A DNA stretch of 64,000 nt from Bacteroidota bacterium (GTDB lineage: Bacteria; Bacteroidota; Bacteroidia; AKYH767-A; OLB10). The stretch is taken from the NCBI GenBank assembly GCA_019136655.1, contig JAGVTU010000003.1, forward strand, positions 28,098 to 92,097, read 5' to 3'. Shown piece by piece: positions 24,722 through 44,836 of the stretch (positions are counted from its first letter, which is position 1; each line of letters opens with the position of its first letter). Made by a program: the position numbers and the translations under genes. The notes beneath the pieces are model-generated. The model made no database searches, had not been told where the DNA came from, and saw only the letters and a list, made by a program, of their open reading frames with translations.

Positions 24722-25963
24722 TTATTTACGCAGTACAATACGAAATACAGTTCCTTTATCAGGCTCAGAACTTTTCACAAAAATATGTCCGTTGTGATAT
24801 TCTTCAACAATACGTTTGCTAAGAGAAAGGCCCAAACCCCAGCCTCGTGCTTTGGAAGTATAACCCGGCTTAAAGACCGTCTTGAATTTTGATTTAGGAA
24901 TTCCTTTACCTGTATCTGCAATATCAATGTAAACAAACTGCTGCTGATCGAGAAGTGTTACATTGATGGAACCTTCGCCATCCATGGCATCAATTGCATT
25001 TTTAAAAATATTTTCAAGTACCCATTCAAACAGTGGTACATTGAGTGGTGCAAACACCTGATGCGATTGTGCCGTGTCAAATTTGAAAGTAACTTTTGTA
25101 GAAGTGCGTGTGCTGATATAAGTAATGGTATTTTCAATCACCGTATTTACATCTTCTTTTTTCAAAACGGGAGCAGAGCCTATTTTTGAAAAACGCTCAG
25201 TGATGGTGTTCAGTCGGTTGATGTCTTTTTCAAGTTCTGCAAGATGAGCAGGGCTGCTTTCCGTAGATTTCAAATATTCCAGCCAGGCCATGAGGCTGCT
25301 GAGTGGTGTGCCTAACTGATGTGCCGTTTCTTTTGCCATGCCCACCCACACCTGATTTTGTTCGGCCTTGCGCGAAGTGCTGAACGCCAGGTAGCTTACC
25401 AATAAAAACAGGGCAATTATCCCTAACTGAAAATACGGATAGAATCGTAACTGGTAAAGTACCTTAGAGTCTTCGTAATAAATATAATTGTGTTGGTTAT
25501 TGGCAAATTCAATTTCAATAGGTTCATGCTTGCTTTTCATTTTCTGAAGCATACTTTTTAAATACTCATCACTCTGTGCTTTGGTTGTGTCCAGATTGAT
25601 ATGAGAAATTATTTTGCCTTCAGCATCGGTAAGTATAGCTGGTACAGTGTTGTTGTCCTGCAGCACCATCAGCGAAAAACTGATATCACCTGCTTCCACC
25701 GAAATATCGGCTAACTGTTTAGAAGCTTCTGCCCACAACTGTACTTTCTTGCGCTCCTCATCACTTAACTTGGTAACCAGATTATTGGTGTACCATAAGG
25801 AAGCAAGCCCTATGAGCATCGCTGCTGCCAGTAGCAACAGTTTCCATCGCTGTTTTTGTGTATAAATATTCACCCTCAGGTTAAACGAAAATATATCCGG
25901 GTAAAAATTCTTTCGATAGTAGGATGAATTACGAGTTTGATGCTGCAATAGTATAAATTTCAA
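24722..25963 (-). CDS. sensor histidine kinase (two TM)
   Basis: H-box HQLGTPLSSL. HATPase motifs (DTGKGIP, GWGLGLSLS). Confidence 0.8.
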   Translation of the reverse strand: MKFILLQHQTRNSSYYRKNFYPDIFSFNLRVNIYTQKQRWKLLLLAAAMLIGLASLWYTNNLVTKLSDEERKKVQLWAEASKQLADISVEAGDISFSLMVLQDNNTVPAILTDAEGKIISHINLDTTKAQSDEYLKSMLQKMKSKHEPIEIEFANNQHNYIYYEDSKVLYQLRFYPYFQLGIIALFLLVSYLAFSTSRKAEQNQVWVGMAKETAHQLGTPLSSLMAWLEYLKSTESSPAHLAELEKDINRLNTITERFSKIGSAPVLKKEDVNTVIENTITYISTRTSTKVTFKFDTAQSHQVFAPLNVPLFEWVLENIFKNAIDAMDGEGSINVTLLDQQQFVYIDIADTGKGIPKSKFKTVFKPGYTSKARGWGLGLSLSKRIVEEYHNGHIFVKSSEPDKGTVFRIVLRK

Positions 25964-26068
25964 CTATATAATCCAATAAATTCACGCGTAAGGTGCATTT
26001 AAATACTTTTTTTAGGTCCCCATGCAACCTCGGTTTCTATTTTTGCATCTTTAAGAATAAGAGCACGG

Positions 26069-26596
26069 ATGCTAAATGATGAACTCATACAACAATGTAA
26101 AGCGGGAGATGGCAGGGCACAGAGAAAAGTGTATGAGCTTACAGCATCAAAAATGATGGGGGTTTGCCTGCGTTACTCCAGAGACGAAGAAGAGGCGAAA
26201 GATTTAATGCAGGACGGATACATCAAGGTGTTCAGACAAATGGCCACTTTTCGTGGCGAGGGTTCTTTGGAAGGATGGATTAAAAAGGTAATCATCAACA
26301 CTGCGCTGGAAAACCTGCGCAAAAAGAAGTTGAGTTTTGAGTCGTTTGACAATCAGCCTGTTGAAATTAACGAAACAGCAATAAAAGACTCAGGACTGGA
26401 AGCAAAAGATTTACTGAAAATTATTCGGTCGCTTCCTGATGGTTATCGAACGGTGTTTAACCTTTTTGCAATTGAAGGTTACACACATCAGGAAATAGCC
26501 GAACAGTTGGGCATTTCCACCGGAACATCCAAATCGCAATTTGCACGGGCAAGACAACTCCTGCAAAAATTATTGACAGAAGAAAAAATTAAATAA
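26069..26596 (+). CDS. RNA polymerase ECF sigma-70 factor
   Basis: Regions 2 and 4 of sigma-70 (DLMQDGYIKVF...; GYTHQEIAEQLGISTGTSKSQ). 175 aa. Confidence 0.8.
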   Translation: MLNDELIQQCKAGDGRAQRKVYELTASKMMGVCLRYSRDEEEAKDLMQDGYIKVFRQMATFRGEGSLEGWIKKVIINTALENLRKKKLSFESFDNQPVEINETAIKDSGLEAKDLLKIIRSLPDGYRTVFNLFAIEGYTHQEIAEQLGISTGTSKSQFARARQLLQKLLTEEKIK

Positions 26597-26613
26597 TTCC
26601 CATCAGGGATAAA

Positions 26614-27516
26614 ATGAAAGAAGAAAAAAACATAGAGCAACTTTTTAAAGACGCTTTCAGCAATTTCGAGGCGCCTGTTGACCCTGCTTTATGGCAAAAT
26701 ATTGAAACCGCTGTTTCTTCTAACCCGGTAAATCCTGCTGATAAAGTACTTTCTACAACAGCAAATAAAGTGCTGGTGGTGAAAACTCTTTCAATGATTG
26801 CAGGTGTTGCATTGATTACAGCAGGAATATTACACTATTTCAACCGACCTGAAAAAACAGAAACGAAACCATCAGTTCCGGTTACGAAAGAAATAATCAC
26901 ACCTGCTGTTCAGCCAAAAACAGAACAAAAAGTAACCGAAACCGACCCGATACATCCTGCAGAAAAAAATAAAACAGTACAACCTGCAGAGAAAGAAATA
27001 AAGACAGAGAAAGAATCTAACATAGTTACTCCTGCTGTAAAAAAGGAAACTCCTGCTGTTGTAAATACTATCAGCAATCATCAGGAGAATACAACTGTCA
27101 ACCTGCAGGATAATAATGCTGTAAAATCAGAGTCAGTTAAAAAAACTGTTGCCCCTGCAACTCCCGCAGTAACTGAGAATAAAGTTACCGAAGCCCCAAA
27201 ACAAAACACTGTTGCAAAACCGGAAACAGTGGCTGTACCCGGACTTGGCAATACGATTTTTACTCCCAACGGTGATGGTATTGGCGATGTGTTTGAGTTT
27301 GACGACAGCTACCTGACAGAGGTAAACGTAAAAATATACAACTCCAAAAACTACAAGTTGGTGTATGAGTGGAATCAGACAGGAGGAAGCTGGGATGGAA
27401 AACTAAGGAATGGAAACGATGCCGATGAAGGAATTTATATCGTCATGATAAACGGAAAGGGTGTTGACGGAAATACATATAAATCTACCATCAAATTACA
27501 GTTAAGAAGAAATTAA
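26614..27516 (+). CDS. anti-sigma-like single-TM protein ending in a T9SS type-B (gliding-motility CHU_C) sorting domain
   Basis: Lies 17 nt after the sigma gene. One TM (IAGVALITAGILHYF). A Pro/Thr/Lys-rich linker. C-terminal FTPNGDGIGDVFEF...IYIVMINGKG matches the CHU_C/type-B CTD. Confidence 0.5.
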   Translation: MKEEKNIEQLFKDAFSNFEAPVDPALWQNIETAVSSNPVNPADKVLSTTANKVLVVKTLSMIAGVALITAGILHYFNRPEKTETKPSVPVTKEIITPAVQPKTEQKVTETDPIHPAEKNKTVQPAEKEIKTEKESNIVTPAVKKETPAVVNTISNHQENTTVNLQDNNAVKSESVKKTVAPATPAVTENKVTEAPKQNTVAKPETVAVPGLGNTIFTPNGDGIGDVFEFDDSYLTEVNVKIYNSKNYKLVYEWNQTGGSWDGKLRNGNDADEGIYIVMINGKGVDGNTYKSTIKLQLRRN

Positions 27517-27553
27517 AAATTAAAATAAGTATAACAATCAAATCAAAATCATC

Positions 27554-30500
27554 ATGTTTAAAAATCTAATACGAATAATGGCTTTGTGTCTTATAGGTAT
27601 TATGCTAAAACCGGAAACGGGTAATGCCTCACACATTGCAGCGGGTGACATATCGTACACCTATACGGGAAGTCCGAATACCTTCCTGATTAAATTGCGT
27701 TTGTATCGCGATTGTGCGGGGGTAACCATGAGCACATCAGAAAGTATTTGTTACACATCTGCTTCCTGCAATATTAACCAAACTCTGACGGTGACATTGT
27801 TACCGGGTTCAGGTCTGGAAATTCCTCCAACACCTTGTGTTCCTGCACAGGGACCATCCACTTGCAGTGGTGGTACTGCATATGGGGTTCAGGAGTACAT
27901 TTATCAGGCTGTACTGGTGATGCCTGCACAGTGTCAGGATTGGAAATTTCAGTGGGAAGTTTGCTGCCGAAATGGAAATATTACGAATCTGGTTAATCCG
28001 GACTTTTATGGTATGTATCTGGAAGCAACTATGAATAACCTTGATTATCCAACTAACAGTTCTCCATTTTTTAACACCATTCCTGTTACTCAGTTTTGTG
28101 TTAATAATCAGTTTTATTTTGATCAGGGAGCTATTGATCCAGACAATGATTCATTGAAGTTTGTATTGATTGATGCTCAGGATGCTTCAGGAGGTTGTCC
28201 TATGACTCCAACCAACCTGGCATATGTCTCACCATTATCAGGAATAAATCCTGTAGCGTCTGTTAATGGAACAACCATTAATCAATATACCGGTGTAATT
28301 TCATTCCTTCCCAATGTTCTTCAAACTCCAGTGATTGCATTACGTTGTTTTGAATATGACCGAACAACAGGAGCCCTGAAAAGTATAGTGAAACGGGAGC
28401 TGCAGATAAATATCGTAGCAACCTGTATCATCTCTACTCCGGGATTCGACAGTACATTGGCTTCAACCGGTTTGAATCTTGTGACCGGTGTTAACAATGT
28501 TAGTTGTGATGATACTGTATTTTATATTGTTATAGATCCTCCTGTTCAGTGTGGTTCGATTGTTCCATCTGATATTCGCGTACTTGACCCAAATGGTGTT
28601 CCTAACCCTGTAGTATCTGCATCAGGAGTTAATTGTGTGAATGGTTTAACAGACTCTATCAGAGTTGCTGTTCTAAATCCGATACATATTGGTACATCTT
28701 CGTTGTTTACAAAAATCGGCAATGACGGAAATACGTTCCTTAGTGAATGTGGTTCGCCTATGAATGAGTTTGATACCTTGTTTATTACGCTATATGATTC
28801 ATCAAATTATGCATTTAATCTCACCGATACATTAGACTGCAGCTTTGATCAGATAAACATCACAAGTAATCAGTTGATAGATTGTTTTACAATAGCTGCT
28901 GACGGAAGTGATTTTATTGTTGTTGATGCCAATGGTGTTAATGTTCCTGTTACAGGCGCTACTTGTGTTGGCGTCAACGGAAGTCATTTTGGTACACAAT
29001 TTATACTTACTACTGTTCCAACCAGTAACGTAGTAAGTCCATTGACGGTTATCGTACAAAACGGTAGCGACCTGAATACGATGGCCAACGGATGCGGCAC
29101 CATGGTGCTGTCAAATGATACCATAGGAACCATTTATGTAAGAAGTCAGCTGGATATAGATTTGGGTACAGACGTAACTGTTTGCTCCAGCGATCCTACT
29201 CCTCAGCTTGATGCAGGATTCTTTGCAGGAGCTACTTATGACTGGACATTAAACGGAACTTCTTTAGGACAAAATGCACAAACTATTCCTGCAAATGCTA
29301 CAGGTCAGTATATAGTAACTGTACAATCATCCGCATCATGTATTGGAACAGATACTGTTGAGGTAAATATTATTGCTGCTCCTGCAGTGAATTTGGGCAA
29401 CGATGTTCACCTCTGTGCAACCGATCCGTTCCCAACATTGGATGCCGGTAACCCGGGAGCAACATATCAGTGGTATCAGAACACTACTGCTATCCCCGGA
29501 GCAACATCACAACAATACACGCCAACTGCTGCAGGTACTTATTTTGTAGAAGTAAGTGTTGGAGCTTCATGCCTTGGCCGCGATACAGTAGAAGTAACCG
29601 TTGAACAACAGTTAAGCATCACCATGAGCGATTTAAGTTATTGCAGTGGCAATGCTGTAACATTACAATCCAGTTCACCAAATACAGGAGTAAATTATAG
29701 CTGGACTCTTGATGGAACTCCAATTGCAGGTCAAAACGGAAGTTCAGTTCCTGTAACAGGTTCCGGTGTTTATCAGGTTACTATCACTGCAGGTTCTTGT
29801 TCTGCCAATGCTTCTGCCAATGTAACAGAAGTAGAACAGCCTTCAGCAACTTTAACAGATATATCACAATGCGACAACGTAACAGCACCTGTGCTTGATC
29901 CTGGTTATGCACCGGCTGCAGGCAACAATACCGTATTCAGCTGGACATACAATGGAAACAGTGTTGGCGGAAATGATCCTACATTAAATACTGCTGCCAC
30001 CGGAGCCGGAAACTACAGTGTTACTATCACTAACACAATTAATGGTTATTCATGTACAGCCAATGCCTCTATGGAATTAACCATTAACGCTGCACCTGCA
30101 GTTGGTTTAGGTAATGATATTACACAATGTATGGGTGATAACCCTGCTACTCTTGCCACTGCAAATGGCACAGGATATACCTTTGAGTGGACATTAAACG
30201 GTAATGTAATTGGAGATGCTACTGACTCCAGCATTACTGCCACAAGCGCAGGAACATATGCAGTTATTGTTACTAATGCTAACGGATGTACAAGTACTGA
30301 CAATGCTGTTGTAAGTATTAATGCTTTACCATCTCCACTTATTCAGGATGATATGCAGCGTCAGGACAGTATTCCTTTCTGCGTGACACAAAACCCTGCA
30401 CCTGTTTTAGCACTGGTGAATAATGCCTTCATCCAAAGTTATCAGTGGACATTAAATGGTGATGACATCACTACCAATGCCAATGTAACCGTTACTGCTG

Positions 30501-30838
30501 TTGGTGAATATCAGGTTACTGTAATTGACTCCAATGGATGCCGCAACTCTGATGTAATTCAGATAATAGAAGCTCCTTGTGAAGTTGAAGTATTTAACGT
30601 TATCACGCCTAACAGTGATGGCAAAAACGATGTGTTTGAAGTAAAAAATCTGCTTGATTTCCCAGTACGTAAACTGACCGTGTTCAACCGCTGGGGTAAG
30701 AAAGTTTACAGTGCCAACCCATATAACAACGACTGGGATGGTGGTAATCTTGCTGCCGGTGTATATTACTTCATTTTGGAATACGATAACGGAATTAAGT
30801 CTGAAACCAAGAAAGGTTCTTTCAACCTTATCCGCTAA
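27554..30838 (+). CDS. large cell-surface protein with six tandem Ig-like repeats and T9SS type-B C-terminal sorting domain
   Basis: Signal peptide. N-terminal conserved HIAAGDISY...LYRDC module. Six repeats of about 79 aa, each with a conserved Cys pair. C-terminal VITPNSDGKNDVFEV...GVYYFILEY CTD. Confidence 0.7.
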   Translation: MFKNLIRIMALCLIGIMLKPETGNASHIAAGDISYTYTGSPNTFLIKLRLYRDCAGVTMSTSESICYTSASCNINQTLTVTLLPGSGLEIPPTPCVPAQGPSTCSGGTAYGVQEYIYQAVLVMPAQCQDWKFQWEVCCRNGNITNLVNPDFYGMYLEATMNNLDYPTNSSPFFNTIPVTQFCVNNQFYFDQGAIDPDNDSLKFVLIDAQDASGGCPMTPTNLAYVSPLSGINPVASVNGTTINQYTGVISFLPNVLQTPVIALRCFEYDRTTGALKSIVKRELQINIVATCIISTPGFDSTLASTGLNLVTGVNNVSCDDTVFYIVIDPPVQCGSIVPSDIRVLDPNGVPNPVVSASGVNCVNGLTDSIRVAVLNPIHIGTSSLFTKIGNDGNTFLSECGSPMNEFDTLFITLYDSSNYAFNLTDTLDCSFDQINITSNQLIDCFTIAADGSDFIVVDANGVNVPVTGATCVGVNGSHFGTQFILTTVPTSNVVSPLTVIVQNGSDLNTMANGCGTMVLSNDTIGTIYVRSQLDIDLGTDVTVCSSDPTPQLDAGFFAGATYDWTLNGTSLGQNAQTIPANATGQYIVTVQSSASCIGTDTVEVNIIAAPAVNLGNDVHLCATDPFPTLDAGNPGATYQWYQNTTAIPGATSQQYTPTAAGTYFVEVSVGASCLGRDTVEVTVEQQLSITMSDLSYCSGNAVTLQSSSPNTGVNYSWTLDGTPIAGQNGSSVPVTGSGVYQVTITAGSCSANASANVTEVEQPSATLTDISQCDNVTAPVLDPGYAPAAGNNTVFSWTYNGNSVGGNDPTLNTAATGAGNYSVTITNTINGYSCTANASMELTINAAPAVGLGNDITQCMGDNPATLATANGTGYTFEWTLNGNVIGDATDSSITATSAGTYAVIVTNANGCTSTDNAVVSINALPSPLIQDDMQRQDSIPFCVTQNPAPVLALVNNAFIQSYQWTLNGDDITTNANVTVTAVGEYQVTVIDSNGCRNSDVIQIIEAPCEVEVFNVITPNSDGKNDVFEVKNLLDFPVRKLTVFNRWGKKVYSANPYNNDWDGGNLAAGVYYFILEYDNGIKSETKKGSFNLIR
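29150..30575 (+). repeat. six tandem repeats of about 237 bp (about 79-aa Ig-like units) inside the 27554-30838 CDS
   Basis: Each unit has the pattern LG(N/T)D..C...P.LDAG.....Y.W..NG..I......T.TA.G.Y.V.V....C...D.V.V. Confidence 0.7.
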
Positions 30839-30861
30839 GTCACTTTTTGTTTCTATTTTTG

Positions 30862-30900
30862 CAAGAGCGTATTCAATAATGAGTACGCTCTTGTTTTTTG
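30862..30900 (+). terminator. rho-independent terminator
   Basis: 10-bp perfect stem CAAGAGCGTA / TACGCTCTTG followed by TTTTTT. Confidence 0.8.
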
Positions 30901-30913
30901 TTTCAATTCATTT

Positions 30914-31867
30914 ATGAAAGTTACCGAACATTTACGTCAGTCAAAGAAAACGCTGTTCAGCATTGAAGTTCTGCCTCCATTGAAAGGTAAAAGCATTCAG
31001 TCTATCTTCAATGCTATTGACCCACTGATGGAGTTTAAGCCCCCCTTTGTTGATGTAACGTATCACCGCGAAGAGTTTGTATATAAGAAACGAGAAGGTG
31101 GTTATCTGGAAAAAATTTCTATTCGCAAACGCCCTGGTACTGTTGGAATTTGTGCGGCTATTATGAATCATTATCAGGTTGATGCAGTTCCACATATTAT
31201 TTGTGGAGGTTTTTCAAAAGAAGAAACAGAAAATGCTCTGATAGACTTAAATTTTTTGGGTATTGACAATGTGCTGTTACTGCGTGGCGATTCAGAAAAA
31301 CATGAACAACATTTTACACCTGAACCCGGTGGTCACAACTATGCGATAGATCTGGTGAATCAGGTTGTGAATATGAACCGAGGTGTTTTTTTGGATGATG
31401 ATTTGAAGGGTGTGGAACCAACTTCTTTCTGCATTGGTGTTGCCGGTTATCCCGAAAAACATTTCGAAGCTCCCAATCTGAATACCGATATTTCCCATCT
31501 CAAAAAGAAAGTTGATGCCGGAGCAGAATATATCGTTACTCAAATGTTTTTTGATAATGAAAAATTCTTTGCCTTCGTAAAAAAATGCCGCGATGCGGGT
31601 ATTTCCGTTCCAATTATTCCAGGTCTTAAACCACTCTCTACCCGGAAACAATTAACCATACTTCCTAAAACATTTCATATAGATATTCCGGAGACATTAT
31701 ACTCAGAAGTGGAAAAATGTTCGGACGACACTGCAGTAAAAACCCTTGGAATTGAATGGGCTGTTCAACAATCAAAAGAGTTGATAAAATTTGGCGTACC
31801 ATGTCTTCACTTTTACACCATGGGTAATCCCGAAAATATCAGACTCATTGCATCACAAATATTTTAG
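30914..31867 (+). CDS. metF: methylenetetrahydrofolate reductase [NAD(P)H]
   Basis: LFSIEVLPP ... the typical MTHFR TIM-barrel, 317 aa. Confidence 0.85.
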   Translation: MKVTEHLRQSKKTLFSIEVLPPLKGKSIQSIFNAIDPLMEFKPPFVDVTYHREEFVYKKREGGYLEKISIRKRPGTVGICAAIMNHYQVDAVPHIICGGFSKEETENALIDLNFLGIDNVLLLRGDSEKHEQHFTPEPGGHNYAIDLVNQVVNMNRGVFLDDDLKGVEPTSFCIGVAGYPEKHFEAPNLNTDISHLKKKVDAGAEYIVTQMFFDNEKFFAFVKKCRDAGISVPIIPGLKPLSTRKQLTILPKTFHIDIPETLYSEVEKCSDDTAVKTLGIEWAVQQSKELIKFGVPCLHFYTMGNPENIRLIASQIF

Positions 31868-31980
31868 ATCAGGCATTTTAGTTGTGAGCGATACAAAATC
31901 ATATACATGTAAGAATATAATGACACTAAAACTTTTAATTTTTGCAGGTGTTAAGCAATATATTTTGTAATATCTAATAC

Positions 31981-32868
31981 GTGAACAGGTTTTCAATTAA
32001 GGACATTGAAATACTGACAGGCATCAAGCCTCATACTATCAGGATATGGGAGCAACGTTACGGTATTTTGCAACCACAACGCACAGCCACCAACATACGA
32101 TATTATTCTGACAATGATTTAAAGCTGATGCTGAATGTATCGTTGTTGAATAAGATGGGTTATAAAATTTCTAAGATAACCTGCCTTAGTGCTGACGAAA
32201 TTGAAAACAAAGTAAGGAGCATGGCCGAGAGTGCCTGCGATGCCGATATCAATCTTGGTGTCCTGCTCAATTGTCTGGTAAGCCTCGATGAAGAAGCCTT
32301 TGAAAGTCTCCTCAACAAAAACCTGAATTGCATTGGCCTTGAAATGACAATGAACAATATCATTTTTCCTTTTCTGAAACGCATAGGTATGTTGTGGCTT
32401 GGCGGAAGTATTGCACCTGCATTTGAACATTTTTTTACAAATCTTGTACGACAGAAACTCATTGCTGCCATAGATAAACAGGAGAGAAAAATTGGTCCGA
32501 ATTCAAAAAACTTTCTTCTTTTCCTTCCACCCAACGAACCACATGAACTTGGTTTGCTCTATGCGCACTATTTAATCCGTTCGCGTGGTCACCGGTCAAT
32601 TTATATGGGATTAAATTTGCCTGTTCAGCATATCTTATGCGCTAACGAAATGTACAAACCCGATTATGTACTTACAGCACTGACTACTTGTGTAAAAATT
32701 AAAGCAGTAGAAGAGTTTGTTCAACATATCTCAAAAGCTTTTTCTCAGAGTAAAATTCTCATTTCAGGAACACAGGCATTAAACCGTTGTTTCCAAATAC
32801 CACATAATGCACGTCTGGTAACCGACTTTGAAGATTTTATATTTTTGCTTGAAAATAAAACCGGCTGA
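31981..32868 (+). CDS. MerR family transcriptional regulator with C-terminal B12-binding-like domain
   Basis: MerR HTH (FSIKDIEILTGIKPHTIRIWEQRYG). The C-terminal region resembles a cobalamin-binding Rossmann-like domain. GTG start. Confidence 0.6.
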   Translation: MNRFSIKDIEILTGIKPHTIRIWEQRYGILQPQRTATNIRYYSDNDLKLMLNVSLLNKMGYKISKITCLSADEIENKVRSMAESACDADINLGVLLNCLVSLDEEAFESLLNKNLNCIGLEMTMNNIIFPFLKRIGMLWLGGSIAPAFEHFFTNLVRQKLIAAIDKQERKIGPNSKNFLLFLPPNEPHELGLLYAHYLIRSRGHRSIYMGLNLPVQHILCANEMYKPDYVLTALTTCVKIKAVEEFVQHISKAFSQSKILISGTQALNRCFQIPHNARLVTDFEDFIFLLENKTG

Positions 32869-32883
32869 CAACAGTTTTTTCGA

Positions 32884-33177
32884 ATGCCACTTTCTGAACT
32901 GACAAGTCAACATCCGTATTTGTTAATTGATTTTTACGCTGACTGGTGTGAGCCCTGTAAGTGGCTTAATCCGGTGCTGGAAGAATTAAAAACAAAACTG
33001 CCTCAACTGCATATTCATAAAGTAAATGTAGATGAGCAAACAGCGATTGCTCAAAATTTTGATGTTCGCAGCGTACCTGTACTGGTGTTGTTTGTAAATG
33101 GAAAAGTAGTTTGGCGTATGAACGGATTTAAATATGCCCGAGAGTTGGCAGACGAACTTAAAGCTTATATGAAATAA
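32884..33177 (+). CDS. thioredoxin with atypical CEPC active site
   Basis: Thioredoxin fold of 97 aa. The active site reads WCEPC instead of the canonical WCGPC. Confidence 0.75.
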   Translation: MPLSELTSQHPYLLIDFYADWCEPCKWLNPVLEELKTKLPQLHIHKVNVDEQTAIAQNFDVRSVPVLVLFVNGKVVWRMNGFKYARELADELKAYMK

Positions 33178-33261
33178 TCTTTTTGTTTATAAGTTTTGTC
33201 ATTGTGCTGAAGTTACAGACATACAGTTGCTGTTAACTGCTACTTTTACACACCTTCAACT

Positions 33262-35547
33262 ATGGCAAAAAAGAAAATCACATTATCAAAAAATCAATGG
33301 GCTGAAATTAAAAAAGAGCTTTATGGGGTGTTTATTAAGCAGCCAAATGCTTCCTTCAATTACAAACAGGCCTGGCGCAAAGCCGAAATAAATCTGAGTG
33401 ATGAAATTATTACTCAGCTATTATTTGCCGACAAAAAATATGTAGATGACCATTTGCAGCAAATATTGATAGAATTGACTGAATCGGGAGAGTTGATTGA
33501 AACACAACCTTACCGTTATAAACTTTTGCCTTCTGTAAAATTTGTAGTAGGTGTTATAGAGATTTCATCCAAAGGAGAGGGATATGTCATAAACAAAGAA
33601 TTTAAAGAAGATATACAGATTCCTGCGCGGCTGACTGCTAATGCGCTCAATGGCGATACAGTGAAAATTAGTTTGCTAGCACACCGTGAAGGAAGACGCC
33701 AACAGGGAGAGGTTGTTGAAATTATTAAACGTGCGCGACTTGAATTTGCCGGTACGCTACAGCACAGCGGCAGTTATGCATTTGTAGTCTGTGATGACAG
33801 CAAAATGCATACTGATGTTTTTGTTCCCGGAAAAAATCTGAACGGAGCCCGAAATGGTGATAAAGTAATTGTACGCATTACCGAATGGGACAGCGATGCA
33901 AGAAACCCTGTTGGAGAAATTATCAGGCTGCTTGGAACTCCCGGAGAGCATTTTGCAGAGATGAATGCCATTATAGTTGAGTATGGCTTGCCCGAAACAT
34001 TTCCTGAAGAAGTAGAAAAAGAAGCTAAAAAAATTTCTGATAAAATCAGTAACGAAGAAATTAAAAAAAGGCGCGACTTTCGTAAAATACTCACCTTTAC
34101 TATTGACCCTGTTGATGCGAAAGATTTTGATGATGCGCTTTCAATTAAAAAGTTGCCGTCCGGTAACTGGGAAATAGGCGTACATATTGCTGATGTTTCG
34201 CACTTTGTAAAACCAGGCACTGCGATGGAAGCCGAAGCATATAAACGTGCCACCTCTATTTATCTTGTTGACAGAGTGATTCCCATGTTACCGGAAAAAT
34301 TATCCAACATGGTTTGTTCGCTAAGGCCTAATGAAGAAAAGCTTTGCTTCTCTGCGGTTTTTGAAATGAATAATCGTGCTGAAGTAATTTCAGAGTGGTA
34401 TGGAAAAACCATCATCAATTCTGACAAAAGATTTACTTACGAAGAAGCTCAGGAAATTATTGAAACCGGAAAAGGTGATTATAGCGAGGAGCTGTTAACT
34501 TTTAATCAACTTGCAAAGTTGCTTCGCAAAGAAAGGTTGAAAAACGGAGCCATCAGTTTCGAAAAATCAGAAGTAAAATTTCGCCTTGACGACAAAGGAA
34601 ACCCTACAGGTATTTATCTTAAAGAAAGCAAGGACTCCAATAAACTAATTGAAGAGTTTATGTTGCTTGCAAACAGAAAAGTGGCGGAGTTTATAGGAAA
34701 AAATAATGAGTCAGGAAAGAAGAAAAAAACCGAGTCAAAAACATTTGTTTACCGAATACACGATGTTCCTGTAGAAGAAAAGCTAAGTGACTTTAAATCA
34801 TTTGCTGCTCAATTTGGCTACCGCATTAACAATTCATCCGGAAAGGAAGCTGCACACTCCATAAACAAAATGCTTACTGATGTGAATGGAAAAAAAGAAC
34901 AAAGCATGCTTGAGCAGTTAGCCATCAGAAGTATGGCAAAGGCTGCTTATTCAACAGATAACATTGGACATTATGGTTTAGCTTTTGAATACTATACGCA
35001 TTTCACTTCACCCATCAGACGTTACCCGGATGTGATGGTGCACCGTTTGTTAGAGCTTTATATGGCCGGAGGAAAGAGTGTGTCTAAAGATGAGTATGAG
35101 GAAAAATGCAAACACAGTACCGAACAGGAAATTAATGCTGCTGACGCAGAACGTTCTTCCATTAAGTATAAACAGGTACAATACATTGCTGAACGGAAGA
35201 ATGAAATTTTTAAAGGTGTAATTTCAGGTGTTACAGATTGGGGAATTTATGTAGAGCTGGAAGGAAATAAATGTGAGGGGATGATACGGCTTCGTGATAT
35301 GAATGATGATTATTACGAGTTGGATCAAAAGAATTTTTGCATCGTTGGTAATCGCACACGAAAAAAATACACCTTGGGTGACGAACTGCTTGTTGCCGTA
35401 AAAAACACAGACATAATTCGCAAGCAGATTGATTTCATCATTTATGATGAAAACAGACAACATGAAATTAATCCGTTTAAGAGGAGTGACAAGCAAAGAA
35501 ATTCAAAGAAGTTTAAAGGCTCACCAAAACGAAAAGGGAGAAGGTAA
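33262..35547 (+). CDS. rnr: ribonuclease R
   Basis: Cold-shock/OB domains. RNB catalytic domain (FTIDPVDAKDFDDA...). C-terminal S1 domain and a Lys/Arg tail. Confidence 0.9.
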   Translation: MAKKKITLSKNQWAEIKKELYGVFIKQPNASFNYKQAWRKAEINLSDEIITQLLFADKKYVDDHLQQILIELTESGELIETQPYRYKLLPSVKFVVGVIEISSKGEGYVINKEFKEDIQIPARLTANALNGDTVKISLLAHREGRRQQGEVVEIIKRARLEFAGTLQHSGSYAFVVCDDSKMHTDVFVPGKNLNGARNGDKVIVRITEWDSDARNPVGEIIRLLGTPGEHFAEMNAIIVEYGLPETFPEEVEKEAKKISDKISNEEIKKRRDFRKILTFTIDPVDAKDFDDALSIKKLPSGNWEIGVHIADVSHFVKPGTAMEAEAYKRATSIYLVDRVIPMLPEKLSNMVCSLRPNEEKLCFSAVFEMNNRAEVISEWYGKTIINSDKRFTYEEAQEIIETGKGDYSEELLTFNQLAKLLRKERLKNGAISFEKSEVKFRLDDKGNPTGIYLKESKDSNKLIEEFMLLANRKVAEFIGKNNESGKKKKTESKTFVYRIHDVPVEEKLSDFKSFAAQFGYRINNSSGKEAAHSINKMLTDVNGKKEQSMLEQLAIRSMAKAAYSTDNIGHYGLAFEYYTHFTSPIRRYPDVMVHRLLELYMAGGKSVSKDEYEEKCKHSTEQEINAADAERSSIKYKQVQYIAERKNEIFKGVISGVTDWGIYVELEGNKCEGMIRLRDMNDDYYELDQKNFCIVGNRTRKKYTLGDELLVAVKNTDIIRKQIDFIIYDENRQHEINPFKRSDKQRNSKKFKGSPKRKGRR

Positions 35548-41089: not shown

Positions 41090-41857
41090 CTAAAAATCTT
41101 TCCTGATAAATTTACGGATAGCAGCAATTGTCGGAACAATAATCCACACAATTAATATTGCAAAAATTACAACCGATCCTTTTTGTGAGCCCAAAAACTC
41201 TTTGAACAATGCACCGCTGTAGCCCATTAGTGCAGAGTAATCGGTGTGAATCAAAATTAAAATACGTGAAATATCAACGGGGTTGAACGAACTGAGCACA
41301 ATGATTAATTTTTCAATAGGATAATCGCTGAACTGAAACATGATTAACAGCAGAATACCATCGTAAAGAATTGAAAAAAACAACCAAATGAAAATAGCCA
41401 TACCAATTCCTTTGGCTTTATCTCTGGTAATGACAGAACCAAAAAATGCAAGTGATGTGAAAATAAGCGTGAGCAATGCACCTGTTATAATAAACAACAA
41501 GCCAATTTTATCGGGAGAATAAATTAAAACAGGAATTCCTGCACCTACAATAAATGCAGTAACCAGTGATAATGATACTGCTGCATAAATACTGGTGATT
41601 AATTTTTTTCTGGAAATGGGTTGCGCCACCAGCAGCTCAATAAACTCACCTGAATTGAAAATATAAATGGTGCTGTAAATTAAACTTACCAAAGGCACTA
41701 TAAACAGAATAATATTAAGCAGACTTAAAATACCTTTTGTGGTATTGTTATCCAGATTAAAAATGCCGAAACAGGTTAAAAACAAAAAGAGCAAATAAGT
41801 AAGCACAACCTTACTTTTCAGTATATCAATGGTAACGTACTTGACAATCTTATTCAT
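41090..41857 (-). CDS. nosY: ABC-2 type permease, NosY-like
   Basis: 6-TM permease overlapping the upstream NosF ATPase by 4 nt. Last gene of the nos cluster. Confidence 0.65.
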   Translation of the reverse strand: MNKIVKYVTIDILKSKVVLTYLLFLFLTCFGIFNLDNNTTKGILSLLNIILFIVPLVSLIYSTIYIFNSGEFIELLVAQPISRKKLITSIYAAVSLSLVTAFIVGAGIPVLIYSPDKIGLLFIITGALLTLIFTSLAFFGSVITRDKAKGIGMAIFIWLFFSILYDGILLLIMFQFSDYPIEKLIIVLSSFNPVDISRILILIHTDYSALMGYSGALFKEFLGSQKGSVVIFAILIVWIIVPTIAAIRKFIRKDF

Positions 41858-42561
41858 AAGGTTTTTAAAATTGAAGTAATTACTTTTGAAACAGACTTTT
41901 CACCGGTGCGGTGCTGAAGTTCTTCAATGCCTGAGTGAAACACCAGATTACCTTCGCGCAGATACATTATTTCTGATACCAACTCATCCAACTCACTGAG
42001 TATATGCGAAGTGATGAGAATAATTTTTCCTTTGCTTCGTTCGTGTTTGATTTTTTCTTTCAGTATTTCAGAAGATAAAGGATCAAGGCCGGCAGTAGGT
42101 TCATCCAGAATAATTATTTCAGGAGAAAACAAAAATGCAAGACAGGCACTTACCTTTTGAGTGGTACCACCCGACAGTGTGCCCATACGTTTGGAGAATA
42201 AAGCTTTCAAGCCGAAAGCTTCCATCAGTTCAGTGTCAGCACTGCTCAAGGCTGTTTTTCTTATTTCAAGAATCATATCGAACACCTGCTGAATGGTCAT
42301 ATTCTGTGGATAACGACCTATCTGTGGCATATATCCAATGATGTTGCGGTATTTATAATCTCCTTTGATAGACTGATTGTTTATTTCAATCGTTCCCGAA
42401 TCCGGAATCAGCATTCCGAGCAGACATTTGATAAAAGTAGTTTTGCCGGAAGCGTTAGGACCCAGTAGTGCTACAGAATTACTTTTCTTTATCTGAACAG
42501 AAATATCCTTAAGCACATGCAGCTTACCGAATTTCTTGTTAACGTTTTTTATATCTATCAC
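41854..42561 (-). CDS. nosF: ABC transporter ATP-binding protein, NosF-like
   Basis: Walker A (GPNASGKTT), signature motif LSGGTTQK, Walker B (IILDEP). Sits between nosD and nosY. Confidence 0.8.
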   Translation of the reverse strand: MIDIKNVNKKFGKLHVLKDISVQIKKSNSVALLGPNASGKTTFIKCLLGMLIPDSGTIEINNQSIKGDYKYRNIIGYMPQIGRYPQNMTIQQVFDMILEIRKTALSSADTELMEAFGLKALFSKRMGTLSGGTTQKVSACLAFLFSPEIIILDEPTAGLDPLSSEILKEKIKHERSKGKIILITSHILSELDELVSEIMYLREGNLVFHSGIEELQHRTGEKSVSKVITSILKTL

Positions 42562-43859
42562 ATCTTTACCGGTTTTATCAGAGGAGTGTTGTCAACCAGG
42601 TTTTCAGGAGTGATACTTGGAATGATTTTTTCGCTCTGATCGAGTAGAAAAACTATAAAACTTCTCAAAAATACGGATGCTACGGGAATATTTTCAATGA
42701 CCATGCTGAATAAACTGATTGGGCGGTAAGGAACATCACCAACACCATCACGTTTTAAGTCATAACCATCATATTTATCCCAGAAGTTTCCGTTAAAATT
42801 ATTTAATACAAGGCTTCCATTGGTTGCAACATCAAATGTGTTTTCAAAAAAATTATTGTTGTTAACATTATTGTTATTACAACTTGCCTGTATGCGGATG
42901 GCATATCCATTTCTCAGAAATTTATTGTTGGTTACATCTATTCTGTTAGTACCTTCCAGATAAATACCAATGGTATTTTGTTCAAAAACATTATCTCTGA
43001 TGATACCGTCATTTATTTCTTTCAGTAGCAGCCCATATGTAGATTCACCCTGATTAAACAGAAAGTGATTCTTAAACATGTGGATATTATTTGAAAACAT
43101 TACTGCCACACCTGCACCATTTTTTTCGAATGTATTGTTAATGTATTCATCGTTGTTTGAAAACATAAAGTGTAACCCATAACGAATGTTACTCTTGCAA
43201 TAATTATCAGTGATGGTGGAATGTTGAACAAATTCAAAATAAATACCATCCCGATGACCCGTAATATTGTTATTTGCTATTTTAGCATAACTGTTCTTCC
43301 AGAGATGAATGCCATTTCCGGTTGTTTGTTCGTCATTACCCGGAACACCTCTTATCTGGTTGTATGTAATACTAAAATTGTCGCATCCTGCAATGTAAAT
43401 GGCAAAATGTGTATTAAGAATGGTATTTTTTGTAATTAAGAACTGACGGCTGTCAATTACTTTAATGGCGGCTAGATCTTTTAATGACGAAAATCCTGAA
43501 TACTGAAATGTAAGTCCTGAGACAACCACACCGGCAACATCTTTTATAGTAAGAATTTCATAAGTGCCCTCACCATCCAGCACCGGATTGTTTTTACCCA
43601 GAAGGGTAATTTTTTTCTTTATTACAATATTTTTTTCTTTGTAAATACCGCCATTTACCACAATGGTATCTCCATCTTTGGCAATGTCAACAGCATTTTT
43701 TATGGTGGTTATTTTATCACGGCCCGAAACGTTGATCACTTCTGCATGAAGTGGCAACATGAAAAATAAAAAAACAACAGAAAAGAAAAGACAGCGTATC
43801 CAACTAAGGAAATGCAGCCAAAACCTTTTCCCAATTACAAATTTCTCCACCGTATTCAT
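42558..43859 (-). CDS. nosD: nitrous oxide reductase maturation protein NosD (periplasmic right-handed beta-helix)
   Basis: Repeated parallel-beta-helix units (N.I....GI.L). Size and position match NosD. Confidence 0.8.
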   Translation of the reverse strand: MNTVEKFVIGKRFWLHFLSWIRCLFFSVVFLFFMLPLHAEVINVSGRDKITTIKNAVDIAKDGDTIVVNGGIYKEKNIVIKKKITLLGKNNPVLDGEGTYEILTIKDVAGVVVSGLTFQYSGFSSLKDLAAIKVIDSRQFLITKNTILNTHFAIYIAGCDNFSITYNQIRGVPGNDEQTTGNGIHLWKNSYAKIANNNITGHRDGIYFEFVQHSTITDNYCKSNIRYGLHFMFSNNDEYINNTFEKNGAGVAVMFSNNIHMFKNHFLFNQGESTYGLLLKEINDGIIRDNVFEQNTIGIYLEGTNRIDVTNNKFLRNGYAIRIQASCNNNNVNNNNFFENTFDVATNGSLVLNNFNGNFWDKYDGYDLKRDGVGDVPYRPISLFSMVIENIPVASVFLRSFIVFLLDQSEKIIPSITPENLVDNTPLIKPVKM

Positions 43860-44235
43860 TTAAAAGCTTCCGAGCGTTTTCTTCTGATGAAAAAGCAGCA
43901 AACCCACTATTCATCGGAGTGCGAATATCGGCACTTTTCAGAAAAACGGCATTTGCTGCTTCTAACAAATCAGTCTTATCAAAATAATTTACAACTAAAA
44001 CATGACTATACTGTACTTCTTTATTTTCAGGCAAAGCTTTCCACTGTATCATGCAGTTTACATCGTCAAACTTATAAATACGGCCTTTATTGGTAATCAA
44101 CTCTGCACCAAAACGTGTATCTGCTACAGGCATTTTACAGTGATGGCAACTGTCTTTTCCGGCAACAAGGGGTTCCGGTTTCTGCGCACAAGAGGTAAAT
44201 ACCAATACAAATAACAGCAAGAACAATTTTTTCAT
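43804..44235 (-). CDS. nosL: copper chaperone lipoprotein NosL
   Basis: Lipoprotein signal (FTSC). CHHCKMPV metal-binding motif. 143 aa, immediately upstream of nosD. Confidence 0.6.
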   Translation of the reverse strand: MKKLFLLLFVLVFTSCAQKPEPLVAGKDSCHHCKMPVADTRFGAELITNKGRIYKFDDVNCMIQWKALPENKEVQYSHVLVVNYFDKTDLLEAANAVFLKSADIRTPMNSGFAAFSSEENARKLLNEYGGEICNWEKVLAAFP

Positions 44236-44813
44236 TACGCTGCTTTATGTTTTCGCCATTCGATAAACCAAACAACAGCCGCAATGACTACAGAGCCTGC
44301 AACAATATAACCTCCCAAATCGGGCATTGAAAATGCATCAAAATTCAACAATTGTTTATGACCAATAATTGGAGGCTGATACGACATGCCCGGAACCTGA
44401 ATAGGAGCATCAGGGCTCAGGTTATGTCCATAGTCGTAAGTCCACTGATAAAAATCGTACATTGCTAAAACACCTCCTAATGCAGAAACAATCAGGTAGC
44501 TGAATAAGAGTTTGCGACTTCCGGTAATTGCAACCAGCAAACCATAAATAATGAATGCCGCTACAATATAAACAAGGTATGAAAATTCCGGAAACATATC
44601 AACACTTATTTTTTTCATTCCGATATAATGATTCAAACCATTGATGATATCAACATCACCGGTAAGTTTATTAAACCATATATTCATCATTAACCCTTCC
44701 GGATATTGTGGCGCGAACAAATCTATCCGCCAGATAGGAGTGAAATAAGAAATAATAATAGCTAAAGAACATAAAGCGATTATTACTCTGGAAAGGCCAC
44801 TTAGCTTTTGCAT
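44235..44813 (-). CDS. 4-TM membrane protein, NosB-like
   Basis: Integral membrane protein in the slot that NosB occupies in clade-II nos clusters. Confidence 0.4.
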   Translation of the reverse strand: MQKLSGLSRVIIALCSLAIIISYFTPIWRIDLFAPQYPEGLMMNIWFNKLTGDVDIINGLNHYIGMKKISVDMFPEFSYLVYIVAAFIIYGLLVAITGSRKLLFSYLIVSALGGVLAMYDFYQWTYDYGHNLSPDAPIQVPGMSYQPPIIGHKQLLNFDAFSMPDLGGYIVAGSVVIAAVVWFIEWRKHKAA

Positions 44814-44836
44814 ATAAAGGATGTTATTTTGAATTA

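What the first reader, a model, noticed from the sequence alone, without database searches (positions are those of the whole stretch)
26069..30900. ECF sigma / anti-sigma-like TM protein bearing a T9SS type-B sorting domain / giant Ig-repeat T9SS substrate
The gene right after the ECF sigma factor has the hallmarks of a cognate anti-sigma: a 17-nt gap, a short cytoplasmic N-terminus and a single TM. Its C-terminus, however, is a gliding-motility-type (CHU_C, type-B) T9SS sorting domain. The next gene, a 1094-aa repeat adhesin, carries the same domain. An inner-membrane-anchored regulator with an outer-membrane-secretion CTD is topologically paradoxical. It suggests coupling between T9SS cargo engagement and sigma factor release, a surface-signalling logic I do not know as a described mechanism. 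The divergently encoded orphan histidine kinase (24722-25963) may belong to the same module. The clean terminator at 30862-30900 delimits the unit.
Basis: partly seen in the sequence, partly recalled or inferred. Interest (0 to 1): 0.6.

Follow-up and report, generated by a model that had tools for sequence, protein, structure and literature searches.

The report
Anti-sigma factor with secretion-signal-like tail

Summary
In detail: ECF sigma (26069-26596), a 300-aa protein 17 nt downstream (26614-27516) and a 1094-aa type-B T9SS adhesin (27554-30838) form one unit, from an ECF-type promoter (26023-26050) to a terminator (30861-30894).

ORF2 is not a secreted protein with a signal peptide. Its first ~35 aa are a conserved module (2,340 cluster representatives). 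All 17 loci examined place it directly after a closely related ECF sigma, against 1 of 101 ordinary CHU_C proteins.

The same module, TM helix and long disordered tether occur in proteins ending in an outer-membrane beta-barrel. That is the published Dma architecture (Dma1/Das1, PNAS 2024), so the "paradox" has a precedent. The CHU_C-ended version is not in the literature I could search.

ORF2's CHU_C domain belongs to a distinct subfamily. It keeps most type-B motifs but lacks the RWG motif (60/65 cargo against 3/96 anti-sigma class).

Large CHU_C adhesins adjoin the pair in 9 of 11 informative loci. One of these adhesins is separately transcribed and carries the same promoter motif.

The histidine kinase is not part of the conserved module.

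Verdict: a new variant of a known kind. The trigger for sigma release is inferred, not shown.

The parts
26023..26050 (+). ECF-type promoter TGCAAC-N16-GCATCT, 18 nt upstream of the sigma start codon. Predicted to be autoregulated.
   Evidence: It is the only strict match in the 64-kb window, where 0.08 are expected. The same motif sits at the same position upstream of the sigma gene in 11 of the 13 CHU_C-class loci examined (strict or near-strict; none found in L082 or L030), in the barrel-class locus L091 (just upstream of a Kazal-type gene that precedes the sigma), and upstream of a separate CHU_C cargo gene in L084.
26069..26596 (+). ECF sigma factor, 175 aa.
   Evidence: Matches Sigma70_r2, Sigma70_r4_2 and TIGR02937. 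It is 43-57% identical to the sigmas of other CHU_C-class loci (34% for the outlier L089), and 48-51% identical to sigmas paired with beta-barrel (Dma-architecture) partners. Unrelated ECFs are 26-29% identical.
26614..26718 (+). ORF2 residues 1-35: conserved N-terminal module (NIEQLFKDAFSNFEAxVxPxxWxNI), the predicted cytoplasmic sigma-binding domain.
   Evidence: F11 and W27 are invariant. There are 2,340 cluster representatives at E<=1e-3. The model predicts two short helices, 7-15 and 24-35. No Pfam family or PDB entry matches. The module is shared with Dma-architecture proteins.
26776..26841 (+). ORF2 residues 55-76: single transmembrane helix (signal anchor).
   Evidence: Best Kyte-Doolittle 19-residue window scores 1.99 at residues 54-72. 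The AF2 model has a helix at 58-76. In 90/96 family members there is exactly one such segment, with a median start at residue 58. Net flank charge is +0.9 on the N side and -1.2 on the C side.
26842..27231 (+). ORF2 residues 77-206: low-complexity tether rich in T, K, V, E and P, predicted disordered.
   Evidence: Composition. pLDDT is below 50 over residues 77-199. The family-wide linker has a median of 159 aa, a minimum of 134 and a maximum of 285.
27232..27516 (+). ORF2 residues 207-300 plus stop codon: diverged CHU_C / type-B-CTD-like beta-sandwich that lacks the RWG motif.
   Evidence: Pfam CHU_C scores 38.5 bits; TIGR04131 scores 28.8, below its cutoff of 35. pLDDT exceeds 90. The R-[WFY]-G motif is present in 60/65 cargo CTDs but only 3/96 anti-sigma-class CTDs. 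ORF2 reads IYNSKNY where ORF3 reads VFNRWGK.
27554..30838 (+). ORF3: 1094-aa type-B T9SS cargo (Ig/PKD-repeat adhesin), 37 nt after ORF2 and probably co-transcribed with it.
   Evidence: Matches CHU_C at 77.9 bits, TIGR04131 at 50.2 bits (above cutoff), Ig_7 and PKD_3. It has an N-terminal signal-peptide-like segment and an intact RWG motif. There is no terminator between ORF2 and ORF3.
30861..30904 (+). Intrinsic terminator closing the three-gene unit.
   Evidence: 15-bp stem with 6 GC pairs, a 4-nt loop and a T-run.

Best explanation
The three genes form one autoregulated operon: ECF promoter, sigma, anti-sigma, type-B adhesin, terminator.

ORF2 is the sigma's cognate anti-sigma factor and is built on the Dma scaffold:
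- a ~35-aa cytoplasmic N-terminal module that holds the sigma;
- one inner-membrane helix;
- a disordered tether of at least 130 aa, long enough to cross the periplasm;
- a C-terminal domain directed at the outer membrane.

In Dma proteins that last domain is an 8-stranded barrel. In ORF2 it is a paralogue of the T9SS type-B C-terminal domain that has lost the RWG motif found in nearly all real cargo.

Inferred mechanism: this pseudo-cargo domain docks on the type-B branch of the T9SS at the outer membrane, on a PorP/SprF-like shuttle or on the translocon, without being released. Its docking state is set by how busy or intact that branch is. The docking state controls proteolysis of the tether and then intramembrane cleavage, which frees the sigma to transcribe its own operon, including the adhesin.

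What is shown:
- gene order, domains and the promoter motif;
- the strict sigma linkage;
- the shared scaffold with Dma-architecture proteins;
- the RWG loss;
- the cargo linkage.

What is inferred:
- sigma binding (by analogy with Dma1 residues 1-40 binding Das1);
- N-in topology;
- reach to the outer membrane;
- the docking partner;
- the direction of the signal. I lean towards engagement leading to release, which would match adhesin synthesis to free secretion capacity.
For: Anti-sigma role:
- The N-module is conserved and widespread (2,340 representatives).
- A sigma of one ECF group sits directly upstream in 17/17 loci, with gaps from -23 to +50 nt and frequent overlap. The rate is 1/101 for ordinary CHU_C proteins, and that one case is a divergent family member.

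Dma relationship:
- The same N-module also heads proteins that end in OMP_b-brl or OMP_b-brl_2 domains.
- 2/2 of those tested follow an ECF sigma that is 48-51% identical to the window's sigma.
- The P0130 model shows N-helices, a TM helix, a disordered stretch at 98-252 and 8 long strands.
- The published definition and experiments are in PMC10927553 and PMC13088901.

Tether:
- It is disordered and never shorter than 134 aa in 91 proteins.

Pseudo-cargo domain:
- TPNGD, W.G and G.Y.Y are kept at 99% or more, while R-[WFY]-G falls from 60/65 to 3/96.
- In L087 and L088 the anti-sigma CTD is 51% identical to the neighbouring cargo CTD yet differs exactly at RWG.
- All five conserved type-B motifs are needed for secretion, and the shuttles are limiting in abundance (PMC12618676).
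- Type-B CTDs stay bound to PorP-like barrels (PMC9143113).

Regulon:
- The promoter motif is conserved.
- There is a 37-nt gap and no terminator before ORF3.
- Cargo is adjacent in 9/11 informative loci despite unrelated passenger domains.
- L084 has a second promoter copy ahead of a separate cargo gene.
Against:
- I could not obtain the B. thetaiotaomicron Dma1 or B. fragilis Reo sequences. Homology of the N-module is therefore shown only to Dma-architecture proteins found here, not to the experimentally studied ones.
- ECF21 membership of the sigma could not be tested.
- No PorP/SprF-like gene lies in the window or next to any family locus.
- Loss of RWG could equally mean the domain no longer interacts with the T9SS at all.
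- In the window itself ORF2's CTD is only 31% identical to ORF3's and is not its best match.
- Three loci (L082, L085, L096) have no adjacent cargo.
- K+R counts flanking the TM do not by themselves settle the topology.
- The fold search gave only generic Ig/Fn3 matches.
- The fraction of N-module proteins with CHU_C (96/117) is inflated, because the query profile was built from CHU_C-class members.
Confidence: 0.6

Rival explanations
1. ORF2 is a conventional single-pass anti-sigma factor. Its CHU_C-like beta-sandwich is simply a periplasmic sensor or ligand-binding domain recruited from the abundant local CTD pool. It has no contact with the T9SS or the outer membrane.
For: - The RWG motif, near-universal in cargo, is lost, and the NCBIfam type-B model scores below its cutoff.
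- No shuttle gene is nearby.
- The fold is a generic Ig-like sandwich.
- Three loci lack adjacent cargo.
Against: - A disordered tether of at least 134 aa is conserved in every member, which a membrane-proximal sensor does not need.
- The sibling class with the same scaffold ends in an outer-membrane barrel.
- The other type-B motifs are kept at 99% or more.
- Type-B cargo genes adjoin the pair in 9/11 informative loci, and one shares the promoter motif.
- In L087 and L088 the domain tracks its neighbour's CTD more closely than its own orthologue.
Confidence: 0.22
2. One reading: ORF2 carries a fully functional type-B sorting signal that the T9SS actually translocates. Pulling or export of the C-terminus while the N-terminus is held in the inner membrane is what triggers sigma release. 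The C-terminal fragment ends up on the cell surface, much as Dma1 C-terminal fragments end up in vesicles.
For: - Pfam CHU_C scores above its threshold.
- RefSeq names the Brumimicrobium member a T9SS type-B sorting-domain protein.
- The tether is long enough to reach the outer membrane.
- Dma1 yields C-terminal outer-membrane fragments (PMC10927553).
Against: - RWG is absent in 93/96 members, and the C-terminal Gly in 64/96.
- Each conserved type-B motif was required for secretion of SprB-CTD fusions (PMC12618676). Which lettered motif RWG corresponds to could not be read from the text.
- TIGR04131 scores below its cutoff for ORF2.
Confidence: 0.13
3. ORF2 is an ordinary secreted CHU_C protein. 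The hydrophobic segment is a cleaved signal peptide, or the start codon is miscalled, and the position next to the sigma gene is coincidental.
For: Public records name these proteins only as gliding-motility C-terminal-domain proteins or as hypothetical proteins.
Against: - The hydrophobic segment starts at about residue 55 and is about 22 residues long.
- The preceding 35 aa are the most conserved part of the protein, and all homologues start at the same Met.
- Sigma adjacency is 17/17 for the family against 1/101 for ordinary CHU_C proteins.
- The genes often overlap.
Confidence: 0.03

Closest known systems
[quoted passage not shown]
   Same: - Encoded directly after an ECF sigma.
- A short N-terminal sigma-binding region of about 40 aa, one inner-membrane helix and a long disordered periplasmic tether.
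- A C-terminal domain aimed at the outer membrane.
- Restricted to Bacteroidota.
- Proteins with the full Dma architecture carry the same N-module as ORF2, and their sigmas are about 50% identical to the window's sigma.
   Different: - The defining C-terminal 8-stranded barrel is absent. ORF2 has a ~90-aa CHU_C beta-sandwich instead, so it cannot insert into the outer membrane by itself and would need a partner.
- The known Dma regulons concern vesiculation and polysaccharide utilization loci, not adhesins.
- Direct homology to Bt Dma1 was not tested.
T9SS type-B CTD cargo and their PorP/SprF-like shuttles (SprB/SprF, PG1035/PorP; PMC12618676, PMC9143113)
   Same: The C-terminal domain belongs to the same Pfam family (CHU_C) and keeps the TPNGD, W.G, G.Y.Y and L.R positions. 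The neighbouring gene is a genuine type-B cargo.
   Different: - No cleavable signal peptide; instead a cytoplasmic module plus a membrane anchor.
- The RWG motif and often the C-terminal Gly are lost.
- Below the NCBIfam cutoff.
- No passenger domain, only a disordered tether.
- No adjacent shuttle gene.
Cell-surface signalling FecA/FecR/FecI
   Same: An anti-sigma factor relays a signal from an outer-membrane machine across the periplasm to an ECF sigma, with regulated proteolysis as the likely output.
   Different: FecR has a folded periplasmic domain that contacts the N-terminal extension of a TonB-dependent transporter. There is no sequence or domain relationship, and no FecR Pfam match.
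PorA-PorXY-SigP pathway of P. gingivalis (PMC7712824)
   Same: A small CTD-bearing protein reports on T9SS status and ultimately controls an ECF sigma. It is proposed as feedback between secretion capacity and gene expression.
   Different: - PorA has a signal peptide and a type-A CTD and is surface-located.
- It acts through a two-component system, not as an anti-sigma.
- It is restricted to Porphyromonas.
- The histidine kinase in the window is not PorY (51 bits against a 350-bit cutoff).
RseA/DegS/RseP envelope-stress pathway
   Same: A single-pass anti-sigma factor whose degradation is triggered by the state of outer-membrane protein traffic.
   Different: RseA has a folded class-I anti-sigma domain and a periplasmic RseB-binding domain. 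It does not itself carry an outer-membrane targeting domain.

Membership tests
[quoted passage not shown] | Encoded adjacent to its cognate ECF (ECF21) sigma factor | tested here: met
   A 17-nt gap in the window. Adjacency holds in 17/17 related loci. Whether the sigma belongs to ECF21 itself could not be tested. It is about 50% identical to sigmas paired with barrel-type partners.
[quoted passage not shown] | N-terminal ~40-aa sigma-binding domain homologous to that of Dma1/Reo | tested here: inconclusive
   The N-module profile hits barrel-architecture proteins at E of 1e-13 to 1e-22. The Bt Dma1 sequence (WP_008766767.1) could not be retrieved, and binding cannot be tested here.
[quoted passage not shown] | Single alpha-helical inner-membrane segment after the N-terminal domain | tested here: met
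   Hydrophobic segment at residues 55-76 and an AF2 helix at 58-76. 90/96 family members have exactly one such segment.
[quoted passage not shown] | Long intrinsically disordered tether | tested here: met
   Residues 77-199 have pLDDT below 50 and low-complexity composition. Family linkers span 134-285 aa.
[quoted passage not shown] | C-terminal eight-stranded outer-membrane beta-barrel | tested here: not met
   ORF2 ends in a ~90-aa CHU_C beta-sandwich with no OMP_b-brl match. The sibling P0130 does have the barrel.
T9SS type-B CTD substrates (PF13585 / TIGR04131) | C-terminal domain matching the family models above their curated thresholds | tested here: inconclusive
   Pfam CHU_C scores 38.5 bits, above 27. 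NCBIfam TIGR04131 scores 28.8 bits, below 35, with a partial alignment.
T9SS type-B CTD substrates (PF13585 / TIGR04131) | N-terminal cleavable Sec signal peptide | tested here: not met
   The hydrophobic segment begins at residue ~55 after a conserved module, is about 22 residues long, and has no conserved cleavage motif. No dedicated signal-peptide predictor was available.
T9SS type-B CTD substrates (PF13585 / TIGR04131) | Full set of conserved CTD motifs required for secretion | tested here: not met
   R-[WFY]-G is present in 60/65 cargo CTDs and 3/96 anti-sigma-class CTDs, and is absent in ORF2. The C-terminal Gly is present in 64/65 against 32/96. How these map onto the published motifs A-E cannot be read from the text.
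T9SS type-B CTD substrates (PF13585 / TIGR04131) | [quoted passage not shown] | tested here: not met
   No PorP/SprF-like gene is adjacent in the window or in any family locus. Orphan substrates that use a distant shuttle exist (PMC12618676), so this alone does not exclude membership. The function itself cannot be tested here.
ECF sigma factors | Sigma-70 regions 2 and 4 only, about 170-200 aa | tested here: met
   Matches Sigma70_r2, Sigma70_r4_2 and TIGR02937 at 92 bits, above 42.9; 175 aa.
Catalogued anti-sigma domains (zinc-binding/class I ASD, RskA, FecR, DUF4179, NepR) | Sequence match to a catalogued anti-sigma domain | tested here: not met
   No Pfam hit on the N-terminal 81 aa even at E<=10, apart from hydrophobic noise. 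No PDB sequence match.
PorXY-SigP T9SS regulatory system | PorY-family histidine kinase as part of the module | tested here: not met
   NF052314 (PorY) scores 51 bits against a 350-bit cutoff. A kinase accompanies the pair only in the closest syntenic relative, L081, and in none of the other loci.

The most novel reading that the evidence does not exclude
The protein is a tethered pseudo-cargo. Its RWG-less type-B CTD competes with real adhesin CTDs for the scarce PorP/SprF-like shuttles or for the translocon. Occupancy of the type-B secretion branch is thereby read out directly as anti-sigma stability. This would be a secretion-capacity homeostat that spans both membranes in one polypeptide and matches adhesin synthesis to export capacity.
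Probability: 0.3. Interest if true: 0.8.

Novelty: new variant of a known kind. Interest (0 to 1): 0.62.

Why it matters
How Bacteroidota regulate their many type-B T9SS adhesins is largely unknown. It is also unknown what signals Dma-type anti-sigma factors sense and how they reach the outer membrane.

A widespread, so far unannotated sister class of Dma proteins swaps the barrel for a modified secretion-signal domain and sits next to adhesin genes. This bears on both questions:
- It gives a concrete candidate for feedback between the secretion machine and transcription.
- It suggests that the Dma scaffold is a general trans-envelope signalling chassis with exchangeable outer-membrane modules.
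- It supplies simple handles for testing: a defined promoter motif, a single motif difference (RWG), and a cultured carrier, Brumimicrobium aurantiacum.

It also matters for annotation. These proteins are currently counted as T9SS substrates, which they probably are not.

Tried and rejected
- The genome-contig scan with the full-length alignment was swamped by the generic FTPNGDG motif of CHU_C. Only 2 of 80 loci were true full-length relatives, so I reused the rest as a background control.
- The word-indexed search with the N-terminal profile returned only four fragments.
- The word-indexed search with a barrel-class profile found no Bacteroides proteins, so Bt Dma1 and Reo could not be compared.
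- The metagenome scan failed with the broad profile and gave only three short contigs with a narrower one.
- Supplements of the ECF-classification and Dma papers are not held.
- The Foldseek PDB search gave only generic Ig/Fn3 sandwiches.
- L034's 1084-aa ORF looked like a fusion of anti-sigma and adhesin. It is an indel artefact of a nanopore assembly: an out-of-frame Arg-rich stretch, a new signal peptide at residue ~372, and the CHU_C in another frame.
- The idea that the anti-sigma CTD always mimics its own neighbour's CTD holds in L087, L088, L084 and L077. It does not hold in the window, L081, L089 or L030.
- K+R counts for the positive-inside rule were uninformative; only net charge gives mild support for N-in topology.
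- Relaxed promoter matches elsewhere in the window (1851-1878, 34132-34156, 55474-55501) are at the background rate.
- The histidine kinase was rejected as a module member.


Full report
**1. The observation**

- a 175-aa ORF at 26069-26596;
- a 17-nt gap;
- a 300-aa ORF at 26614-27516;
- a 37-nt gap;
- a 1094-aa ORF at 27554-30838;
- a divergent 413-aa ORF at 24722-25963.

Profile searches give the following:
- The first ORF is an ECF sigma (Sigma70_r2, Sigma70_r4_2, TIGR02937).
- ORF2 carries a C-terminal CHU_C domain. Pfam scores 38.5 bits against a threshold of 27. The NCBIfam type-B model TIGR04131 scores only 28.8 against a cutoff of 35, with a partial alignment.
- ORF3 is a bona fide type-B T9SS cargo: CHU_C 77.9 bits, TIGR04131 50.2 bits, plus Ig_7 and PKD_3.
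- The divergent gene is a histidine kinase.

A 15-bp-stem terminator with a T-run lies at 30861-30894. Nothing comparable separates the three genes.

**2. ORF2 is not a secreted protein with a signal peptide**

Its only hydrophobic segment lies at residues ~55-76 and is about 22 residues long. Homologues down to 21-29% identity all start at the same Met. They share a strongly conserved first ~35 residues (NIEQLFKDAFSNFEAxVxPxxWxNI, with F11 and W27 invariant), then a hydrophobic segment, a variable low-complexity linker and a conserved CHU_C domain.

The AF2 model gives:
- two short helices (7-15, 24-35);
- a TM helix (58-76);
- a disordered stretch (77-199, pLDDT below 50);
- a confident beta-sandwich (210-300, pLDDT above 90).

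Net charge around the TM across 92 members is +0.9 on the N side and -1.2 on the C side. This mildly favours an N-in orientation.

**3. Linkage to the sigma factor is strict and specific**

Eight diverse members looked up in public assemblies all have an ECF sigma immediately upstream on the same strand, often overlapping by 4-14 nt.

I used the 80 loci returned by a scan that mostly captured ordinary CHU_C proteins as a control. All 14 CHU_C ORFs with the N-terminal motif follow a sigma, against 1 of 101 without it. The single exception, L030, is a divergent member with a TM and an extra PKD domain.

Three metagenome contigs and the cultured Brumimicrobium aurantiacum genome show the same arrangement. 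That makes 17 of 17 loci.

These sigmas are 43-57% identical to the window's sigma (34% for the outlier L089). Unrelated ECFs are 26-29% identical.

**4. The operon and its promoter**

Upstream of the sigma genes there is a conserved ECF-type promoter, (A)TGCAAC-N15-16-GCATCT, about 15-35 nt before the start codon.
- In the window the strict motif occurs once in 64 kb, at 26023-26050, where 0.08 matches are expected.
- In L084 a second copy lies about 60 nt upstream of a separately transcribed NIDO/PKD/CHU_C cargo gene.
- A copy is also present in a barrel-class locus, L091.

This argues for autoregulation and for type-B cargo being in the regulon. In the window the cargo is probably simply co-transcribed.

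**5. Linkage to cargo**

A large CHU_C protein lies next to the pair, or within two genes, in 9 of 11 informative loci. The passenger domains are unrelated: Ig_7/PKD_3, SprB+PKD, NIDO/PKD, fn3 and a 2034-aa protein. L082 and L085 have none, and neither does the Brumimicrobium locus L096. Two further contigs are truncated.

A histidine kinase accompanies the pair only in the closest, fully syntenic relative, L081. The window's kinase is far below the PorY cutoff. It is therefore not part of the conserved module.

**6. The wider family: the Dma connection**

A profile of the N-terminal 48 aa, searched exhaustively against 1.84 billion representatives, finds 2,340 proteins at E<=1e-3. The motif is often repeated in tandem.

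Of the 117 top hits of at least 250 aa, 96 carry CHU_C. These have one TM with a median start at residue 58, and a TM-to-CTD linker of 134-285 aa that is never short. This proportion is biased, because the profile was built from CHU_C-class members.

A second class of 485-640 aa ends in OMP_b-brl or OMP_b-brl_2 domains.
- Both members I could look up sit directly after an ECF sigma.
- Those sigmas are 48-51% identical to the window's sigma.
- The model of P0130 shows two helix-pair N-modules, a TM helix, a disordered stretch at 98-252 and eight long strands.

[quoted passage not shown] Dma1 residues 1-40 pull down the ECF21 sigma Das1. Full-length protein is in the membranes and C-terminal fragments are in vesicles. 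Reo/EcfO of B. fragilis is the orthologue (PMC10927553; PMC13088901).

Neither paper mentions the T9SS or CHU_C, and no other paper I could find does either. The N-module has no Pfam family and no solved relative.

**7. ORF2's CHU_C domain belongs to a distinct subfamily**

I aligned the last 95 aa of 65 ordinary cargo proteins with those of 96 anti-sigma-class proteins.

| Position | Cargo | Anti-sigma class |
|---|---|---|
| P of TPNGD | 65/65 | 95/96 |
| W of W.G | 65/65 | 96/96 |
| Y of G.Y.Y | 63/65 | 95/96 |
| R-[WFY]-G after I[FY]N | 60/65 | 3/96 |
| C-terminal Gly | 64/65 | 32/96 |

- The L.R ending is also kept in both groups.
- The Trp of the RWG motif is not seen in the anti-sigma class.
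- ORF2 reads IYNSKNY where ORF3 reads VFNRWGK.
- In L087 and L088 the anti-sigma CTD is 51% identical to its neighbour's cargo CTD, closer than to its own orthologue, yet it differs exactly at RWG.

Published work shows three relevant things:
- Each of five conserved type-B motifs is needed for secretion.
- Type-B CTDs need cognate PorP/SprF-like shuttles that are limiting in amount (PMC12618676).
- The CTD stays bound to the PorP-like barrel for surface anchorage (PMC9143113).

The sequences of the published motifs are not in the text. That RWG is one of them is therefore my inference.

**8. Interpretation**

The best-supported reading is a Dma-type anti-sigma factor. Its outer-membrane module is a pseudo-cargo, type-B-CTD-like domain rather than a barrel, and it controls an autoregulated operon that includes a type-B adhesin.

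Shown:
- the architecture;
- the linkage to the sigma;
- the promoter;
- the cargo association;
- the motif loss.

Inferred:
- sigma binding;
- reach to the outer membrane;
- docking on a shuttle or the translocon;
- proteolytic release;
- the direction of the signal.

The main rival is that the domain is merely a periplasmic sensor with no T9SS contact.

The signal-peptide reading is rejected.

**9. Novelty and limits**

The scaffold is known (Dma, 2024). The CHU_C-ended class and its association with adhesin genes are not described in the literature I could search, and databases label these proteins as T9SS substrates. I therefore file it as a new variant of a known kind.

Limits:
- No binding or localisation test was possible.
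- There is no direct comparison with Bt Dma1.
- The sigma could not be assigned to ECF21.
- The sample of loci is modest, and most come from metagenome assemblies.

Noticed in passing
window 26033-26047 and 30849-30863: The exact 15-mer GTTTCTATTTTTGCA occurs twice in the window, where 0.03 matches are expected. One copy lies inside the spacer/-10 of the sigma promoter. The other lies between the ORF3 stop codon and the terminator stem. It contains a Bacteroidota housekeeping -7-like box (TATTTTTG). The second copy lacks the GCAAC -35 element and may be the metF promoter. Unexplained.
   Followed up: partly
P0058 (1463 aa), P0059-P0066, L084 7001-8077, L034: The anti-sigma N-module is often tandemly repeated: 2 copies in L084 and L034, 4-6 in many barrel-class proteins, and 23 matched stretches in P0058. 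P0058 ends in a C-type lectin domain and has no TM by my hydropathy scan (no 19-residue window at or above Kyte-Doolittle 1.6). What multiple sigma-binding modules would do is unclear.
   Followed up: no
L091 2177-2425: In a barrel-class (Dma-architecture) locus, a Kazal-type protease-inhibitor gene sits directly upstream of the sigma, with the ECF promoter motif at its 5' end (2179-2205). This is interesting because release of such anti-sigma factors is thought to be proteolytic.
   Followed up: no
L034 6328-9582: An apparent 1084-aa fusion of anti-sigma N-module and adhesin is an indel artefact of a nanopore-based assembly. The real arrangement is sigma, anti-sigma-CHU_C, NIDO/PKD/CHU_C adhesin.
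   Followed up: yes
window 30914-35547; L081, L084, L085, L096: The sigma/anti-sigma locus keeps the same neighbours (metF/MTHFR, a MerR/B12-binding regulator, thioredoxin or redoxin, RNase R) across lineages whose anti-sigma proteins are only 23-44% identical. This suggests an old, vertically inherited core locus rather than a mobile cassette.
   Followed up: partly
L088 1-2036: In one family locus, PorU-like (Peptidase_C25) and PorV genes lie 4-6 kb upstream of the sigma gene.
   Followed up: no
L090 2907-4078: A second, more distant sigma-like gene (29% identical) and a further ORF follow directly after the anti-sigma gene. The contig ends there.
   Followed up: no
window 41090-47461 (-): A nitrous-oxide reductase cluster: a protein with nos_propeller repeats (45470-47461) and NosD (42558-43859).
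   Followed up: no
window 10985-13381 (-): A hybrid histidine kinase with a CHASE3 sensor domain and a receiver domain (798 aa). It is unrelated to the finding.
   Followed up: no
L096 8001-9104 (Brumimicrobium aurantiacum QURB01000001.1): A cultured organism carries a class member (N-module, TM, tether, PKD, CHU_C; 367 aa) that overlaps its sigma gene by 11 nt. RefSeq labels it only as a T9SS type-B sorting-domain protein. Several other members (P0014, P0024, P0028, L030) also have an extra PKD domain before the CHU_C.
   Followed up: partly
P0069, P0070, P0084: Some N-module proteins of 300-360 aa have a TM and a tether but neither a CHU_C nor a barrel domain. They may represent a third class, or they may be truncated gene calls.
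   Followed up: no
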